Shown here in pieces: positions 39,310-59,690 of a stretch of DNA of 64,000 nt; position 1 is the first letter of the stretch; each line of letters starts with the position of its first letter. The notes under the pieces are model-generated. The model was not told the origin of the DNA. It saw only the letters and a program-made list of their open reading frames with translations, and ran no database searches. The position numbers and the translations under genes were made by a program. This DNA comes from Malacoraja senta (taxonomy: Eukaryota). The stretch lies in contig CM075987.1 of assembly GCA_038087875.1 (NCBI GenBank), forward strand, positions 16,618,001 through 16,682,000. The letters run 5' to 3'.

Positions 39310-39398
39310 AAATCCAGCTACGGATGTCCATCCACAATTCTCGGGGTCTGAACAGTGAAAGCACAAGAATTGCGTTTGGACAATCAATAGCGAGAATT
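39310..39398 (-). ncRNA. MIR219A2: mir-219-2 precursor hairpin
   Basis: Minus strand 39386-39366 reads TGATTGTCCAAACGCAATTCT, which is mature miR-219-5p. Minus strand 39341-39320 reads AGAATTGTGGATGGACATCCGT, resembling miR-219-2-3p. The arms are complementary with a 24-nt loop. It lies antisense and just 3' of URM1, as in human. Confidence 0.97.
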
Positions 39399-53502: not shown

Positions 53503-56066
53503 TGGGCAAATATGAAACAAAGCACTGTCAGACTTTTAAAACCGGATGGTTCCAATAACACACCAATTCCTGATGGCATGTCGTGCTATCAATAGCACCA
53601 AAATAGAAAGGGCTGGAAACACTCAGTAGGTCAGGCAGCATCAGTGGAGAGAGGAACAGAGTTTTAACATTTCAGGAAAAAGACCCCTTATCAAAACTGG
53701 GAATGTGAGAACATATGTTAAAGCTGGAGAGAGGATGGGAGAGGGGCATTGGGACAAAGGGAGTATCACCACAATGCCGTTTCCAATATTTATCTCAGAC
53801 TTTGGGCATCTGTTATTTTTGGTTTCCAAGTTCTACCCCTGTGACATCTTGTACGCAGCAAGTGACTGGCAGACGGCTGTGGAAATGGAGAAATCCCACC
53901 CTGGCCAACATTTCCCCCACATTGTGTTCCACCACTCACACATTGTGGGATCAGGTACAGTAAGTGCAAGATCTTCCTTCCATTGAAGCAAATGTAAATC
54001 ACTCCAGAAGCTGCTTGTCTTAGTGAGTATTTTGAAGCATTCACCATTGCACTTTTCTATTTCTGTATCGGCTTTTGGCATTAATATAGAACGTGGAACT
54101 GTACAGCACATGAACAGGCATTACGGCCACAATGTCTGTGCCAACCACAATGCCAATTTAAACTGCACCTCTCATGTTAAATTCCTTTATAATGTTATGT
54201 TGTATTCTTATTAATGGGCTGCAATGGCAACTCGAATTTCACTGCACCAATTGGTGTATGTGACAATAAATGAACCTTTGAACCTTTACTTGCTTTATTC
54301 AATGCCTTTTCATGTGCCTGTCTAAATGCCTCTTAAACGTTGCTATCATATCTGTTTCCACTACTTACCTTGACAGCGTGTTCCAGGCACCAACCACAAT
54401 ACTTGCTTTGCCAAATCTCCATTAAACTGTGCCCCTCTCACCTTTAAGCCATTCCCTCTAGTATTTGATATTTCCACCCTGGGAAAAACTCTGACTGTCT
54501 ACCCTGTCTATGCCACTCATCATTTTATATCGTTAAATAATGCTCCGATTGGAGTTGTTAGCATCTGGGGAACCACATCCGGTATTCGTCCCAGTGATCT
54601 GGACAAGAGAGGGAGGACTTTATTCTTAAAGATCCATTCAAACTACTCCCTATTCCTGGTGCTGCCTGACATCCACTCCCTATTTATTGAGGCCAATTAA
54701 CCTACAAACCCGTACGTCTTTCGGATGTGGGAGGGAGCACCCAGAGGAAACCCACCTGGTCACAGGGAGTGCATGCAAACTCCACATGGACAGTAACATT
54801 TTCTCTACATTGCATTCCACCAAGAACATTGGCTGCAACGTCCATTAAAGCAAATGTGAATCACTCCAGAAGCTGCTTGTTTCAGCGACTATTTCACATG
54901 TTTATGGTCAGGATTGAACCTGAGTCTCTGGTGCTGTGAGGCAGTAGCTCAACCATCTACACCACTGTGCTGCACTTATCGTGTTCCCCGTCTCATTTAT
55001 CCATTCACTTTGAGTTCCGGTATTGTATGCATCCTCATCCAATACAAAATTCTTTCATGAACTCCACCCAATAGCCCTACTTGCATCCACCCCAGTAATC
55101 ATCCAAGCACTCGCCTTGTCTCTCCAGGTTTTCCTGCCTTTATTCAGTCCTGACATGTTCTCCATCCTCCTCATATTGTTCTGGTGTGCGCTGTTACTGT
55201 TAAAGGCTGGTCTCAATTGTGCATTCTAATAAACTATCAACCCCAATATTTAAAAGGAAAACCGTTTTTCATGTTCCACTTGAACTCCTCTTCACAGGGG
55301 ACAAGCCTACAGCTTTAAGCTGCCATTTCTGTTCAATGTTGAATTCGGCTCGATCAGCAAGGCTGCTGGAGCCTTGAGAATTTCCTGTCAATCTGGCACA
55401 CACATGTGTTTGAAGATTAAAGAAAGAGAATACATTTAATTTAATGCAAACCTTTTGAATTAACTCAATCCCAGTTAAGATTCTGTTTTCCTTTCGTGCA
55501 GCTGTGTTTATTCAAACATCATTTAAGACAAGTTTGTGCTGAGTCTTCTTGCTTACATGTCCCCCTATGTTCTAAATTACTGGCAAACGCAGAACAACAA
55601 CACATTCATTTATCAGCAAGATTCAATCTCCTCCAAATGACTTACTTGGCCCATCGGTTCTACTCCACTATTCAATCATGGCTGATCTATCTTTCCCTCT
55701 TAACCGCATTCTCCTGCCTTCTCCCCATAACCCTCGACACCCGTACTAATCAATCCCCACCTTATAAAATACCCAGTGACCTGGCCTCCACAGCCATCTG
55801 TGGCAATGAATTCCACAGATTCACCACTCTTTGACTAAAGAATTTCCTCTTTCATATCCTTTCTAAAGGAGAGTCCTTTTATTCCGAAGCTATGGCCTCT
55901 GGTCCTAGTCTCTCCCACTAGTGGAAACATCCTCTCCATATCCACTCTATCCAGGCCTTTCACTATTCGCTACGTTAATGAGGTCCCCCATTTTAAGTTT
56001 ATTATTGTCACTTGTACTGAGGTACAGTGAAAATGCTATCCAATCAGAGCAGACAATACTATAGAT

Positions 56067-56235
56067 CTTCTATCGAGTCCACGTACAAGATTAGAAGTTG
56101 TTCAGCCAGAGCTGAACACACTTCTCGGCATCTGCACAATGGTGTCTGTCTTGTCGCTTCTTGTGTTTCTTGTGCGTGGTGGTGGAACGATTGGTGGAAA
56201 CAGGGCCGCGACGTGAACGCTCTTTCCTTGACCCC
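56067..56235 (-). mobile_element. 169-bp non-autonomous retroposon headed by a minimal HDV/CPEB3-like ribozyme fold
   Basis: 12-bp TSD aatactatagat at 56055-56066 and 56236-56247. Has a 3' stem-loop AGAAGT(G)TGTTCAGC-TCTG-GCTGAACAACTTCT and ends in ...GATAGAAG. Confidence 0.85.
56184..56235 (-). ncRNA. Predicted minimal (P4-less) HDV/CPEB3-like ribozyme, 52 nt
   Basis: GGGGTC-AA-GGAAAGA-GCG-TTCACGT-CGC-GGCCCT-GTTTCCA-CCAA-TCGTTCC. P1 is 6 bp starting with G1-U, P2 pairs 6 of 7, P3/L3 is GCGTTCACGTCGC, and J4/2 is CCAA (C at 56194). Confidence 0.75.
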
Positions 56236-56489
56236 AATACTATAGATAAATACAATCGTCAAGTACAATAGGTAGAGAAAAGGGGAAGATACAGAGATAT
56301 AGAATATAGTTCTCAGCATTGCAGTACACCAGTTCCAGAGACAAAGTCCAATTCTAGTAACCCCTGACATGACCCTTCCTGGGAAAAGAAAAACACTTAA
56401 CTCTATGTCCCTCTCACAAACCTTAAATGTTCTAAAGCATATTCTAGACAATAAAATACTTAACGCAGGAGTCAGTGTACATTTGACTA

Positions 56490-56975
56490 CTGAGAGTGGT
56501 AGACACTGCCCGGTCCATCACAGGTACTGACCGCCCCACCATTGAAGGGATCCACAGGAGCGCTGCCTCAAAAAGGTAGCCAATATCATCAAGGGCCCAC
56601 ACCATCCTGGCCACACTCTCATTTTACTTCTACCATCAGGAAGGTGGTACAGGAGCCAAAACACGCATGAACGCCATGTTATGAACAGCTACTTCCCGGC
56701 AACCATCAGCTCTTGAACACTGCTCATCCCAAACCTCAGCAACTATGATCTTCAATGGACTGTTTTTGTTGCAGTACGGACCAGATATGCACTATTATGC
56801 TTACTTAGCATTATGGTTATTAATTTATTGTGGTATTGATTATGATATATTTATTTGTGTGTTCTTGCATTTACTAGCTCGTTATGCTGCAGCAAGTCAC
56901 AATTTCATTGTTCCTTTGCTTTTACTTATGACAATTAGACATGTTTGATTCCTTAACTCGTGACTTGATTCTTGA
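56490..56975 (+). mobile_element. Rex1/Babar-type LINE 3' fragment
   Basis: RVVDTARSITG...NIIKGPHHPGHTLILLLPSGRWYRS remnant followed by the same tail family. Confidence 0.65.
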
Positions 56976-57168
56976 GGTACCCCCACCTGTCTTTTCCAGC
57001 TTTTTCACTCCTACTCCAATCAGTCTGATGAACGTAAGACAGACACAATAAGCTGGAGTAAATCAGCGGGACAGGCAGCATCTCTGGATAGATAGAATGG
57101 TGGATAAACAACAAAATGTTGGAGTAACTCAGTGGGCCAGGCAGTATCTCTGGAGAGAAGGAACGGGT

Positions 57169-57196
57169 GACGTTTCGGGTCGAGACCCTTCGTCAG
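57169..57196 (-). ncRNA. Minimal type-I hammerhead ribozyme motif of a PLE
   Basis: CTGACGA-A-GGGTC-TC-GACCC-GAAAC-GTC: CUGANGA and GAAA cores, stem II, palindromic ACGT in place of stem III, and a GUC cleavage triplet. Stem I is only about 2 bp. Confidence 0.65.
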
Positions 57197-57313
57197 ACTG
57201 ATGTCAGGGGAGTGGGAGGTACATAGATAAGTAAGTGTAAGGTGTGAAAACAGGACAGGAGGAATGGAGATCAAGGAACATGTAGAATAGATCATTGCTA
57301 GTTAGGAGAAGGT

Positions 57314-57462
57314 TTGTTCGCTCGTGTGTCAGATGACGTTTAGCTCGCTGTTGGCTCTGTCATCGTCCAACATGTTGACAGAATTGGTCGCCCGACGCGT
57401 CACAGAGTGCAACGTGTCGTCGTTTCCGAGGAGCGCCACGAGGAGGCTTCTGTCATGATCCC
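57314..57462 (-). mobile_element. 149-bp non-autonomous retroposon headed by an HDV-like ribozyme fold
   Basis: 10-bp TSD aggagaaggt at 57304-57313 and 57463-57472, interrupting a Penelope 3' region. CpG-rich, and the 5' 87 nt fold as an HDV-like pseudoknot. Confidence 0.85.
57376..57462 (-). ncRNA. Predicted HDV-like self-cleaving ribozyme, full form with P4
   Basis: P1 GGGATC/GCTCCT(C) with one mismatch; P2 TGACAGAA/TTCTGTCA, 8 bp perfect; P3 GCC/GGC; L3 TCCTCGT; GG available for P1.1; P4 CGACACGTTGCA/TGTGACGCGTCG; J4/2 CCAA with the candidate catalytic C at 57387. Confidence 0.8.
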
Positions 57463-58325
57463 AGGAGAAGGTGACAACAAAGCAAACAATGATAAACTGT
57501 AGTCAGAGACAGTAAGACTGGTCGGAGAACTGGGAAGGGGGAGAGGATGGAGAGAGAGGGAAAGCAAGGGTTACTTGAAGTTAGAGAAGTCAATATTCAT
57601 ATCGCTGGGGTGTAAGCTGCCCAAGCATAATATGAGGTGCTGTTCCTCCACTCTGACAATGGAGGAGGCCCAGGACAGAAGGTCAGTGTGGGGATGGGAG
57701 GGGGAGTTAAAGTGTTGAGAACCAGGAGGTCAGGTAGGATTTAGATGGACTGAGTGGAGGTGTTCAGCGAAATGATCGCCGAGCCTGCGCTTGTCTCGCC
57801 GATATACAGGAGTATGGGTGACGTTTCGGGTCGAGACCCTTCTTCATGCCTTCCAGTCTGATGAATGTTTCTGACCCAAAATGTCACCTGTCCGTTCCCT
57901 CCACAGATGCTGCCTGACCCGCTGTGTTCCTGCACTTTGCAGATTCCAGCATCTACAGTTCCTTTGTCTCCACAATCAGACTGCTACATTGAAACGCTGG
58001 CTGGGAAAGCATTTTAGAAAGAGGCACTATTACAATGTAAGTAATAATTGTTGAAATGCTGGCCTCTTCCTGCCTGTTCCCTGTAGATTTAGCGCCTTCA
58101 CTCAGAGGAGCAGATTTAAACTTCAACCCACTTTTTTTTCAACTTAAACTCAAGGGAATTAGAACATCCCTTCTTTCTGATATGATGTTTAGGCTCATTT
58201 TTGGGGGGTAAGAATATCCTTTCCCTATATAAAACGTTTCCTGCTCTCTCAAACTCTTCCCCCGTTACTTCATCAGACCTTTCCCCACGTCCAGTCCTTC
58301 CTCCTCCCCCCCCCATTCCTCCCCA

Positions 58326-58406
58326 CCCCCCAGTCCCACACCTACCCCCCAGTCCCACACCTACCCCCCAGTCCCACACCTACCCCCCAGTCCCACACCT
58401 ACCCCC
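58326..58406. repeat. 19-bp tandem repeat x4 (ccccccagtcccacaccta)
   Basis: The agtcccacac units start at 58332, 58351, 58370 and 58389. Confidence 0.95.
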
Positions 58407-58736
58407 TCCTGTCATTCCCACATCTCAATTCCTCCCCATCCCCTCCTGACTCCCCCCCCCCACCCCCCAGTCCACCCCCTCTTCCTCCGCCTGTCCTTTC
58501 CCCACTCCACACCTTCCCCACCAGCCCTCCTGACATCTCCCCTCCCCACCCACCCCATTCGCCCTCCCTCCCCATTCCTCCCCCCCACCCCTCCTCCTGT
58601 CCCCCCCCCCCCTCTGCCCCGGCTCCCGCCTCAGTTTCCAGCAGCGCCCAGTCCCGTCCTGTCCCACCCAACCTGCTGACGCGTCCGACCGAGCTCCCGG
58701 GCAGCGGGGCTTGTTGCGGAGAGCAGTCGCTGGAGG

Positions 58737-58951
58737 ATGGGGGCCGACGTGGGCTCTGCTCCTCGCCTGCTCTCACGACCCCCGGCCGCCGCCGCTTACT
58801 TCTCCGAGGAGAGGCAGCCGGGGCGAGTCGCCGCTGCAAAGCCCCACCGTGCTGGTCGCGATCATCGGCCAGGAACGCGGCTCACACCCTGCCCTACTAC
58901 TTGGGCGCCCTGGAGAGACTGGACTACCCGAAGGACAGGATCTCCATTCTG
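58737..58951 (+). CDS. CERCAM: First coding exon of a CERCAM (GLT25D3)/COLGALT-family glycosyltransferase-25 gene, with several 1-nt frameshifts as assembled
   Basis: Three frames stitch to ...AAAYFSEERQP/ESPLQSPTVLVAII/ARNAAHTLPYYLGALERLDYPKDRISI(W), followed by donor gtgagt at 58952. This matches the COLGALT/CERCAM N-terminus (ARNAxHxLPxxLGALERLxYP). CERCAM is preferred over COLGALT1/2 because of URM1-mir219 synteny. Confidence 0.88.
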
Positions 58952-59369
58952 GTGAGTGGGTTACATCACCCCTCCAACCAGGGTCACTCCCCCGATCAAA
59001 CCACACTAAGAAACGCCATGAGATTCTCACGTTCCCTTCCCCCCGATTTCAGTAAAACACAAAGAGCGGCTCAGGCAGCGATCGCACGGACAGATGAACC
59101 ATCGGACCTTCCTTCCTTCACACAGACATCCTTCAATCCTTTCTCCCAGACGATCGCCTCCACAGTTGAACAGGCGAAACTAAGGACTGACTATTCCTTT
59201 CCCTCCACAGATGCTGCCTGTCCCGCTGAGTTCCTCCCGCATTTAGTTTCCAGCGGGCAGTGGGGTTGGCGTCCCCCTGCTCAGCTGACAAGCCCAGGGG
59301 GCAGGGGAAGGAATCTTGAGCAAAACTTATAAGTGCTGGGAGAAATCTAGTGGGCCAGCCCGCAGTTGT

Positions 59370-59690
59370 AGGGGTGGGGGGGTGGTGGTGGTGGAGGGAG
59401 GTGAGGTGATTGGGAGGGAGAGGGTGGAGGGAGAGGTGGGAGGGGAAGGGATTGGGAGGGAGGGGGGAATGGGGGGGAGAGGGGTGGGGGGGAGGGGATT
59501 GGGAAGGAGAGTGGTGGGATGGGAGGGGGAGGGAGAGGGGACGGAGAGAGGGGGAGAGGATTGGGAGGGAGGGGGTGGGAGGGAGAGTGGTGGGGGAGAG
59601 GGGTGGGGGAGAAGGGTGGGAGGGGATTGGGAAGGAGAGGGGTGGGAGGGGAGGGAGGGGGAGAGGAGGGATGGAGGGAGGAGAGAGATG
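59370..59690 (+). repeat. G-rich low-complexity tract (G-quadruplex-prone) in CERCAM intron 1
   Basis: Dozens of GGG+ runs separated by short A/T loops. Confidence 0.85.

What the first reader, a model, noticed from the sequence alone, without database searches (positions are those of the whole stretch)
57169..57462. HDV-like and hammerhead ribozymes in tandem on one strand: potential self-excising, circularisable 294-nt RNA
Seen: the HDV-like insert sits in a Penelope 3' UTR in the same orientation, with its 3' end about 120 bp upstream of an intact hammerhead core (57196-57169). Both lie 1.3-1.6 kb upstream of and antisense to the CERCAM ATG, with the second HDV-like fold about 0.9 kb further on. 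Known: both ribozyme classes leave 5'-OH and 2',3'-cyclic phosphate ends, which are RtcB substrates, and CpG promoters commonly fire upstream-antisense transcripts. Inference: divergent transcription could release a 294-nt RNA (57462 to 57169) able to circularise like a retrozyme, or the ribozymes may simply chop the antisense transcript. The arrangement may be a chance nesting.
Basis: inference. Interest (0 to 1): 0.8.

Follow-up and report, generated by a model that had tools for sequence, protein, structure and literature searches.

The report
Chance nesting of two transposon ribozymes
A short mobile element that begins with an HDV-like ribozyme landed by chance inside a Penelope-like element that carries a hammerhead motif, and neither copy looks able to cut on its own, so a circular RNA is unlikely.

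Summary
On the minus strand, a 149-nt insert (57462-57314) with an HDV-like fold sits between perfect 10-bp target-site duplications. It lies in the tail of a 5'-truncated Penelope-like element (PLE), 117 nt upstream of an intact hammerhead core (57196-57169).

The pairing is a chance nesting:
- The two parts are separate repeat families, and only this locus spans either junction.
- 2 of 48 sister copies also have a same-strand hammerhead within 300 nt downstream.
- This HDV copy lacks the family's first G and pairs only 5 of 7 positions in P1. It scores 14.7 bits, against 22.6-25.6 for three sister copies.
- The hammerhead is the minimal PLE type. Its helix III cannot close in one molecule, and the only nearby partner has a broken core.
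- The 294-nt RNA folds no better than shuffles (z +0.77).
- No RNA data could be had.

By-product: the insert belongs to retroposon families that start at the predicted HDV-type cleavage site. An APE+RT LINE in the same genome begins with a ribozyme that passes Rfam's CPEB3 cut-off, at up to 64 bits.

The parts
57463..57472 (-). Target-site duplication, upstream copy (ACCTTCTCCT)
   Evidence: Read. It is identical to 57304-57313. In 6 of 6 paralogous PLE copies the sequence is contiguous across this site, with a 7-9 nt overlap.
57314..57462 (-). Copy of 'family A', a 150-nt non-autonomous retroposon that begins with an HDV-like ribozyme. This copy lacks the first G.
   Evidence: 872 candidates, 40 scored, 39 other copies at 92-94% identity; target-site duplications in 29 of 30 copies; 28 of 30 copies start with G and this one has T.
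57377..57462 (-). HDV-like fold of this copy. P2 7/7, P3 3/3 and P1.1 2/2 are kept, but P1 pairs only 5 of 7.
   Evidence: helix tables; P1 duplex -4.0 against -11.7 kcal/mol for the family majority. (CPEB3 model, 14.7 bits). (three sister copies, 22.6-25.6 bits).
57304..57313 (-). Target-site duplication, downstream copy
57166..57198 (-). Minimal PLE-type hammerhead motif (core 57196-57169, predicted cut after 57169)
   Evidence: It is the only one of 13 motif copies in the window with both a perfect 22-mer and an intact CUGANGA. Its features match those listed in PMC4209133.
57103..57813 (-). 5'-truncated Penelope-like element: endonuclease remnant plus pLTR/tail, interrupted by the insert
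   Evidence: paralogs end at 57111-57103. (5352 candidates). (weak RVT_1, E 0.003, upstream in longer copies). (nearest Atlas clusters carry GIY-YIG on 17-27% of members, score 0.96).
57814..57848 (-). Upstream hammerhead fragment with a broken core (CAUGAAGA in place of CUGAAGA; its GUC ends at 57820)
57854..57934 (-). Inverted partial copy of the PLE tail, abutting the upstream hammerhead fragment
   Evidence: (matches to paralog tails in the opposite orientation).
56066..56235 (-). Copy of 'family C', a 170-nt retroposon that begins with a P4-less, CPEB3-like HDV-type ribozyme. It is flanked by TCTATAGTATT at 56246-56236 and 56065-56055.
   Evidence: 27.6 bits, E 2.2e-4. (1651 candidates). 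(20 of 20 copies start at GGGGTC). (target-site duplications in 18 of 20).
58737..58951 (+). First coding exon of a COLGALT/CERCAM-family gene, used here only as a landmark

Best explanation
The 294-nt interval is an accidental juxtaposition of two transposon-borne ribozyme motifs. It is not a unit.

First, a Penelope-like element (PLE) inserted upstream of the gene. It was 5'-truncated and is preceded by a fragment of its own tail. Its pLTR/tail carries the minimal hammerhead that all PLEs carry.

Later, a 150-nt non-autonomous retroposon inserted into that tail by target-primed reverse transcription and made a 10-bp duplication. Its RNA normally begins at the cleavage site of its own HDV-like ribozyme. 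That the ribozyme sets this 5' end is inferred.

In the source elements the HDV-type ribozyme frees the 5' end of the retroposon RNA from a read-through transcript. The PLE hammerhead acts, weakly, only as a dimer of two copies. At this locus both are decayed or lack a partner, so little or no self-cleavage and no circular RNA are expected.

Shown here: the insertion anatomy, family membership, uniqueness of the composite, the state of the helices, and the lack of a competent partner motif. Inferred: loss of activity, and the order of events (insert younger than the PLE).
For: 1. Two separate families. The 331-nt composite query splits at the junction, and only the window's own place covers both halves among 40 scored of 3898 candidates. 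Junction-spanning 101-nt queries are spanned only by the window itself, 1 of 40 scored each.

2. The empty site is seen in 6 of 6 paralogous PLE copies.

3. The insert is a typical family member. Target-site duplications of 8 or more matching bases abut the ends in 29 of 30 copies, against 0 of 30 in a displaced control.

4. Such tandems recur at the chance rate. Of 48 other HDV-type retroposon copies, 2 (L030, L054) have a same-strand hammerhead motif within 300 nt downstream, and 6 within 1500 nt.

5. The HDV copy is degraded.
- T stands where 27 of 29 copies have G1, and pair 6 is U x C, so P1 pairs 5 of 7.
- Only 3 of the 29 copies have 5 or fewer P1 pairs, this one included.
- The P1 duplex is -4.0 kcal/mol, against -11.7 for the family majority.
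- The Rfam CPEB3 model gives 14.7 bits, against 22.6-25.6 for 3 sister copies.
- Passages read in PMC3774820 report that single P1 mismatches went with absent in vitro cleavage. PMC1874588 states that changes to G1 or its partner reduce activity.

6. The hammerhead needs a partner. Helix III would be A-U closing a 2-nt loop, which cannot form, and ACGU is a palindrome suited to a dimer. PMC4209133 reports no detectable cleavage by a single minimal PLE motif and only low cleavage by dimers. The only same-strand copy within 12 kb (57848-57818) has an extra A inside CUGA.

7. PMC11167929 found no RNA-seq ends at a PLE hammerhead site, and hammerhead mutants still inserted in vitro.

8. The 294-nt RNA has MFE -63.97 kcal/mol, z +0.77, and 155 of 200 shuffles fold at least as well.
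Against: - The hammerhead core here is the best preserved of the 13 copies in the window.
- P2, P3, L3, P1.1 and the invariant CCAA of the HDV copy are intact.
- The C-to-T change at pair 2 creates a G.U pair. With a 6-bp P1 register this would put a wobble pair at 57462, as in canonical HDV ribozymes, so weak cleavage there cannot be excluded.
- Hammerhead transcripts from thousands of other PLE copies could in principle supply a partner in trans.
- Same-strand hammerheads outnumber opposite-strand ones around these retroposons (17 against 6). The co-orientation is therefore favoured by target choice, not purely random.
- Activity was not measured, and no RNA data bear on the locus.
Confidence: 0.85

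Rival explanations
1. Upstream-antisense transcription from the gene's CpG-rich promoter runs through both ribozymes. HDV-type cleavage before 57462 and hammerhead cleavage after 57169 release a 294-nt RNA with 5'-OH and 2',3'-cyclic phosphate ends, and RtcB circularises it as in retrozymes.
For: The geometry is right and both motifs lie on one strand, with the ribozymes inside the released piece. The end chemistry of both classes is established knowledge. The hammerhead core nucleotides are all present. Four of the five HDV helices are intact. The promoter region has G+C 0.64-0.73 and CpG observed/expected 0.70-0.78 at 58600-58999.
Against: - The HDV copy lacks G1 and has a P1 mismatch.
- The hammerhead cannot form helix III alone.
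- In a cis dimer, by the double-hammerhead topology (inference), the site at 57169 would be cut by the core of the upstream copy, and that core is broken.
- The composite is unique.
- The RNA has no compact fold.
- Retrozymes are repeated units flanked by like ribozymes, which this is not.
Confidence: 0.03
2. No circle forms, but one or more of the ribozymes cut read-through or upstream-antisense transcripts and so shorten or destabilise them. The best-kept candidate is the family C copy at 56235.
For: The family C copy keeps P1 6/6, P3 3/3, P1.1, and P2 6/7. It scores 27.6 bits, like two sister copies at 26.9-27.9. Passages read in PMC6765202 and PMC3774820 give co-transcriptional self-cleavage as the normal job of HDV-type ribozymes at retrotransposon 5' ends.
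Against: Any such cutting would be a by-product of transposon sequence. It has no sign of selection at this locus and could not be shown here. The family C copy lies 2.5 kb from the ATG, far for a promoter-upstream transcript. The P2 mismatch may weaken it.
Confidence: 0.1

Closest known systems
Minimal hammerhead ribozymes of Penelope-like elements (Cervera and de la Pena 2014, PMC4209133; passages read)
   Same: [quoted passage not shown] The motif sits in the PLE tail, downstream of a reverse transcriptase and a GIY-YIG-like endonuclease.
   Different: Helix II is 4 bp, against the 6-8 bp described for several PLE variants. No tandem partner with an intact core is present here. No Rfam hammerhead model matches.
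HDV-like ribozymes at the 5' ends of non-LTR retrotransposons (R2, R4, Dong, baggins, RTE, L1Tc) and their non-autonomous derivatives (R2 SIDEs, NARTc); passages read in PMC6765202 and PMC3774820
   Same: The ribozyme is the first feature of the element, and copies start at the predicted cleavage site right after the target-site duplication. The short ORF-less elements resemble an autonomous LINE at the ribozyme core (both families) and, for family C only, at the 3' terminus. P4 is optional.
   Different: The majority sequence of family A has a G-C pair, not a G.U wobble, at the cleavage site. J4/2 reads CCAA in families A and C. The autonomous partner of family A was not found. The window's copy is a decayed member.
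Retrozymes and other small circular RNAs with self-cleaving ribozymes (PMC7229834 and PMC4918200 seen as search listings only; bioRxiv 10.64898/2026.07.22.740005, abstract and passages read)
   Same: Two self-cleaving motifs on one strand would leave ends that a ligase can join.
   Different: Retrozymes are repeated units, often tandem, bounded by the same hammerhead. Here two unrelated ribozyme classes from two unrelated transposons meet once in the genome.
Mammalian CPEB3 ribozyme (Rfam RF00622)
   Same: The family A and C ribozymes are best matched by this model, and family C shares an unbroken 15-nt P3/L3 stretch with the model consensus. A LINE in the same genome starts with a ribozyme that passes the curated cut-off, at 59.7-64.2 bits in 5 of 5 re-scored places.
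   Different: The two window copies score below the cut-off (14.7 and 27.6 bits against 35). They are transposon 5' ends, not a single conserved intronic element.

Membership tests
HDV-like self-cleaving ribozyme (nested double pseudoknot) | P3 (3 bp) with L3, followed at once by the 3' strand of P1 and then P1.1 | tested here: met
   window copy has P3 3/3 and P1.1 2/2, and the order of segments matches the family majority. Alignment.
HDV-like self-cleaving ribozyme (nested double pseudoknot) | Continuous P1 of 6-7 bp whose first pair holds the cleavage-site G | tested here: not met
   window copy pairs 5 of 7, with T x C at pair 1 (27 of 29 copies have G there) and T x C at pair 6. The family majority pairs 7 of 7.
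HDV-like self-cleaving ribozyme (nested double pseudoknot) | P2 closing the outer pseudoknot | tested here: met
   7 of 7 pairs. Between families A and C, P2 differs by 4 double (compensatory) changes and P3 by 1.
HDV-like self-cleaving ribozyme (nested double pseudoknot) | Catalytic C in J4/2 | tested here: inconclusive
   CCAA directly before the P2 3' strand is invariant in 29 of 29 family A and 20 of 20 family C copies. Which C acts cannot be told from sequence.
HDV-like self-cleaving ribozyme (nested double pseudoknot) | Curated covariance-model score | tested here: not met
   14.7 bits on RF00622 (cut-off 35). No other HDV-type Rfam family matched at E up to 10.
HDV-like self-cleaving ribozyme (nested double pseudoknot) | Self-cleavage | not testable with these tools
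   Needs in vitro transcription.
Minimal hammerhead of Penelope-like elements | Conserved core (C3-A9, G12-A14, A15.1-U16.1, H17) | tested here: met
   CUGACGA ... GAAA ... ACGU C at 57196-57169.
Minimal hammerhead of Penelope-like elements | Extra nucleotide between 9 and 10.1, G10.1-C11.1 pair, palindromic helix III | tested here: met
   read against the four features listed in PMC4209133.
Minimal hammerhead of Penelope-like elements | Lies in the pLTR/tail of a PLE (reverse transcriptase plus GIY-YIG endonuclease) | tested here: inconclusive
   The tail is contiguous with an endonuclease-like remnant. RVT_1 matches only weakly upstream (E 0.003). Pfam GIY-YIG is not matched. Atlas neighbours carry GIY-YIG on 17-27% of members.
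Minimal hammerhead of Penelope-like elements | A second competent copy nearby to form the active dimer | tested here: not met
   the only same-strand copy within 12 kb has CAUGAAGA.
Minimal hammerhead of Penelope-like elements | Match to an Rfam hammerhead family | tested here: not met
   none at E up to 10.
Retrozyme-like circular RNA element | Repeated unit bounded by like ribozymes, in many copies or tandem arrays | tested here: not met
   the composite occurs once.
Retrozyme-like circular RNA element | Circular RNA detected | not testable with these tools
   No RNA holder was listed, and the laid runs covered repeats only.
Ribozyme-headed non-autonomous non-LTR retroposon | Dispersed copies with target-site duplications and 5' ends at the predicted cleavage site | tested here: met
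   29 of 30 and 18 of 20, controls 0; first base G in 28 of 30, and GGGGTC start in 20 of 20.
Ribozyme-headed non-autonomous non-LTR retroposon | Shares its ends with an autonomous LINE | tested here: inconclusive
   Family C against the LINE: 31 of 36 in the ribozyme core and 16 of 18 at the very 3' end (score equal to the best shuffle). Family A: 26 of 33 at the 5' end only.

The most novel reading that the evidence does not exclude
The HDV-like insert is one twig of a retroposon group whose autonomous member, a roughly 3.1-kb APE+RT LINE, begins with a ribozyme that passes Rfam's curated threshold for the mammalian CPEB3 ribozyme (up to 64.2 bits).

The genome carries Penelope-like elements. 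By the abstract of a 2026 preprint these track retrozymes, which are absent from mammals and birds. [quoted passage not shown] The CPEB3 intron ribozyme of mammals would then be a domesticated LINE 5' ribozyme.

The much less likely reading for the locus itself is that the 294-nt RNA is made and circularised.
Probability: 0.4. Interest if true: 0.75.

Novelty: new member of a known kind. Interest (0 to 1): 0.33.

Why it matters
For the finding as posed, it matters little. In a genome rich in ribozyme-bearing transposons, tandem ribozyme motifs arise by chance at a few per cent of insertions. They should not be read as circular-RNA genes without RNA evidence.

The by-product could matter more. 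Hundreds to thousands of short retroposons and a LINE in this genome start exactly at an HDV-type cleavage site, and the LINE's ribozyme is CPEB3-like by a curated model. That would make the origin of the mammalian CPEB3 ribozyme testable by comparing LINE 5' ends across vertebrates.

Tried and rejected
- Rfam hammerhead families: no match at E up to 10 in 55500-59500 or in 57120-57260.
- A textbook hammerhead pattern with fixed 13-nt spacing missed the motif because of the extra A. It hit one unrelated place.
- Expression: no RNA holder was listed. The four runs laid (X1-X4) are probably DNA, and their short contigs covered only repeat parts of 55800-59600. The unique parts had no cover. This gives no evidence either way.
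- Earlier findings of this scan: three look-ups, nothing.
- Pfam on endonuclease remnants found no GIY-YIG.
- ARAGORN found no tRNA-like part in 55800-58000.
- Within family A the HDV-like structure is 96.9% paired, against 29-43% when slid. Covariation is not above shuffles, as expected for neutral decay of copies of one master. The structural support therefore rests on differences between families.
- Partner LINE of family A: tail-only queries gave no excess of tail-only copies, and the loci could not be cut out. The LINE found later shares only the 5' ribozyme core with family A.
- collapsed to a 5-nt pattern and was useless.
- Ruminski et al. 2011 (PMC3308841) is not held. Its list of ribozyme-bearing elements, which may include vertebrate RTEs, was not seen.
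- Literature searches for CPEB3 ribozyme with retrotransposon/origin, exaptation words and RTE listed no paper that links the two. This covers only the held library.

Full report
**What is at the locus**

Read on the minus strand, the region upstream of the plus-strand ATG at 58737 holds, in order:
- an inverted scrap of a Penelope-like tail (57934-57854);
- a hammerhead fragment whose core reads CAUGAAGA instead of CUGAAGA (57848-57814);
- a 5'-truncated Penelope-like element (PLE, 57813 to about 57103);
- 0.9 kb further on, a second short element (56235-56066).

The PLE is interrupted by a 149-nt insert (57462-57314) between perfect 10-bp repeats, ACCTTCTCCT. The exon behind the ATG matches the N-terminus of procollagen galactosyltransferase 1 (E 5e-5), which fits a COLGALT/CERCAM-family gene.

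**The hammerhead**

The 22-nt stretch from helix II to the cut site occurs 13 times in the window with up to 3 mismatches, against 0.00 expected. It is part of a very abundant repeat: 3898 and 5352 first-look candidates for two parts of the element.

In six paralogs the element runs through the insertion site without a break, with a 7-9 nt overlap that equals the duplication. These paralogs end at window 57111-57103, about 60 nt past the cut site. That fits the internal start of reverse transcription described for a PLE in PMC11167929 (passages read).

Longer copies carry, upstream, an ORF with a weak RVT_1 match (E 0.003) and a C-terminal part that Pfam does not name. The nearest ESM Atlas clusters of that part are eukaryotic proteins, of which 17-27% carry GIY-YIG (score 0.96). 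I therefore accept 'Penelope-like', with the protein evidence being modest.

The motif shows the four features that PMC4209133 lists for PLE hammerheads:
- a G10.1-C11.1 pair;
- a palindromic helix III (ACGU);
- a short helix I (2 bp, as in the Drosophila virilis variant).

No Rfam hammerhead model matches it. Of the 13 copies in the window it is the only one with both a perfect 22-mer and an intact CUGANGA.

**Why the hammerhead should not cut here**

Helix III would be one A-U pair closing a 2-nt loop, which cannot form in one molecule. The palindrome is made for a dimer of two motifs. PMC4209133 reports no detectable cleavage by a single minimal motif and only low cleavage by dimers or trimers. 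PMC11167929 found no RNA-seq ends at the hammerhead site of an active PLE, and hammerhead mutants still inserted in vitro.

In a double hammerhead the core of one unit cuts the site of the other. This follows from the strand order and is my inference. The site at 57169 would therefore need the core of the upstream copy, and that core is the broken one. The next same-strand copies lie more than 12 kb away.

**The HDV-like insert**

The 149 nt belong to a discrete family, which I call family A. It has 872 candidates, and 40 were scored: the window's own copy and 39 full-length copies at 92-94% identity.
- In 29 of 30 copies a target-site duplication of 8 or more matching bases abuts the ends. 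A control with the 3' side displaced by 400 nt gave 0 of 30.
- The family starts with GGGGAUC, and 28 of 30 copies have G as the first base.
- The majority sequence forms every helix of the HDV fold without a mismatch: P1 7/7, P2 7/7, P3 3/3, P1.1 2/2. There is also a P4 hairpin and an invariant CCAA before the P2 3' strand.
- 16 of 29 copies keep all of these pairs.

The second element in the window (family C, about 170 nt, 1651 candidates) starts at GGGGUC in 20 of 20 copies, with duplications in 18 of 20. It has the same architecture without P4.

Between the two families, P2 differs by four double changes and P3 by one, all of which keep pairing. L3 keeps its U.C.CGU frame and J4/2 stays CCAA. 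Within family A there is no covariation beyond shuffles, as expected for neutral decay. No tRNA-like part is present.

Elements that begin exactly at the predicted cleavage site of a 5' HDV-type ribozyme are the known pattern of R2, R4, Dong, baggins, RTE and L1Tc and of their short derivatives (PMC6765202 and PMC3774820, passages read). A precise 5' end could also come from a fixed transcription start, so cleavage remains inferred.

**Why this HDV copy is a poor ribozyme**

It is the only full-length copy of the 30 that has T where the family has G1; the one other T is in a 5'-truncated copy. It also carries A-to-C at pair 6 and C-to-T at pair 2. P1 keeps 5 of 7 pairs, and the duplex energy falls from -11.7 to -4.0 kcal/mol. 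The CPEB3 model gives 14.7 bits, against 22.6, 24.9 and 25.6 for three sister copies.

PMC3774820 relates single P1 mismatches to absent in vitro cleavage in three species. PMC1874588 states that changes to G1 or its partner reduce activity.

A shifted 6-bp register with a new G.U pair at 57462 is conceivable, so weak cleavage cannot be excluded.

**Is the tandem more than chance?**

No.
- The composite query splits at the junction, and only the window itself covers both halves.
- Both junction queries are spanned only by the window, 1 of 40 scored each. Only the best candidates are scored, so this is not an exhaustive census.
- Among 48 other copies of families A and C, 2 have a same-strand hammerhead motif within 300 nt downstream and 6 within 1500 nt. 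Seventeen same-strand motifs in about 144 kb of flanks predict about 3.5% per 300 nt.
- The 294-nt RNA folds no better than shuffles (z +0.77).

RNA evidence could not be obtained.

**By-product: CPEB3-like ribozymes at LINE 5' ends**

The CPEB3 model was the best Rfam match to both window copies, so I ran it over the genome.
- 59 candidates were scored. Of these, 51 match at E up to 0.001 and 39 reach the 35-bit cut-off. The best scores 64.2 bits.
- 0 of 14 control genomes matched.
- Five top places re-scored at 59.7-64.2 bits.

Four of the five share the sequence downstream but not upstream. After the ribozyme and about 45 nt comes an ATG and one long ORF. In one copy the ORF is open for 843 residues, with Exo_endo_phos_2 (E 1.4e-8) and RVT_1 (E 2.5e-32). 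That copy ends in AAG repeats and lies between 11-bp repeats (read by eye), which gives about 3.1 kb. This is RTE-like by architecture; the clade was not tested.

The LINE's ribozyme core is 31 of 36 identical to family C and 26 of 33 to family A. Its last 18 nt match family C's end at 16 of 18, a score no better than the best shuffle.

[quoted passage not shown] The preprint 10.64898/2026.07.22.740005 says in its abstract that retrozymes are absent from birds and mammals and that their distribution coincides with that of PLEs. On that basis this PLE-rich genome is probably not mammalian; its taxon was not given to me. My literature searches listed no paper linking CPEB3-type ribozymes to LINEs, but they cover only the held library, and Ruminski et al. 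2011 could not be read.

**Verdict**

The interpretation as a self-excising, circularisable RNA is not supported. The arrangement is a chance nesting of a decayed HDV-type retroposon copy in a PLE tail with a partnerless hammerhead.

Noticed in passing
G000 places; loci L076-L079 and L081: An APE+RT LINE of about 3.1 kb begins with a ribozyme that passes the Rfam CPEB3 cut-off. Scores are 59.7-64.2 bits in 5 of 5 re-scored places, and 39 of 59 scored genome-wide reach 35 bits. Four of the five share the LINE sequence downstream and have unrelated sequence upstream.
   Followed up: partly
window 56066-56235 (-): A family C retroposon copy with a P4-less HDV-type ribozyme of about 52 nt. Its P3/L3 stretch is identical to the CPEB3 model consensus over 15 nt. 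It is flanked by an 11-bp duplication.
   Followed up: yes
window 39314-39394 (-): A mir-219 precursor (71.5 bits, the only Rfam match over a gathering score in the window), about 19 kb upstream of the COLGALT/CERCAM-family gene. From memory, not tested: the human MIR219A2 and CERCAM genes are neighbours in the same way.
   Followed up: no
window 58737-58951 (+): The first coding exon needs two frame shifts to read from the ATG through the PTVLVAII stretch to ARNAAHTLPYY. These may be indel errors of the assembly in G+C-rich sequence, or a damaged gene.
   Followed up: partly
loci L026, L029; all flanks: Two family A copies sit at the same site of two different PLE tails (duplication ACTCCAGCATT, 52 nt after the hammerhead). 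Same-strand hammerheads outnumber opposite-strand ones 17 to 6 around these retroposons, and many duplications start with AC. This suggests a target preference.
   Followed up: partly
locus L018; locus L054: One family A copy is inserted inside a hammerhead motif. One family C copy ends 14 nt before a same-strand hammerhead, which makes another HDV-then-hammerhead tandem.
   Followed up: partly
window 58300-58640: A long tract that is G-rich on the minus strand, with tandem units of about 20 nt, between the transposons and the promoter.
   Followed up: no
loci L033 and L034 (C6, about 60 kb apart): Two family A copies with the same flanks and the same changes, which points to a segmental duplication.
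   Followed up: no
locus L072 2162-2905 (-): An ORF next to a PLE copy matches Pfam ALKBH8_N (E 2.1e-16). It is probably part of another retroelement.
   Followed up: no
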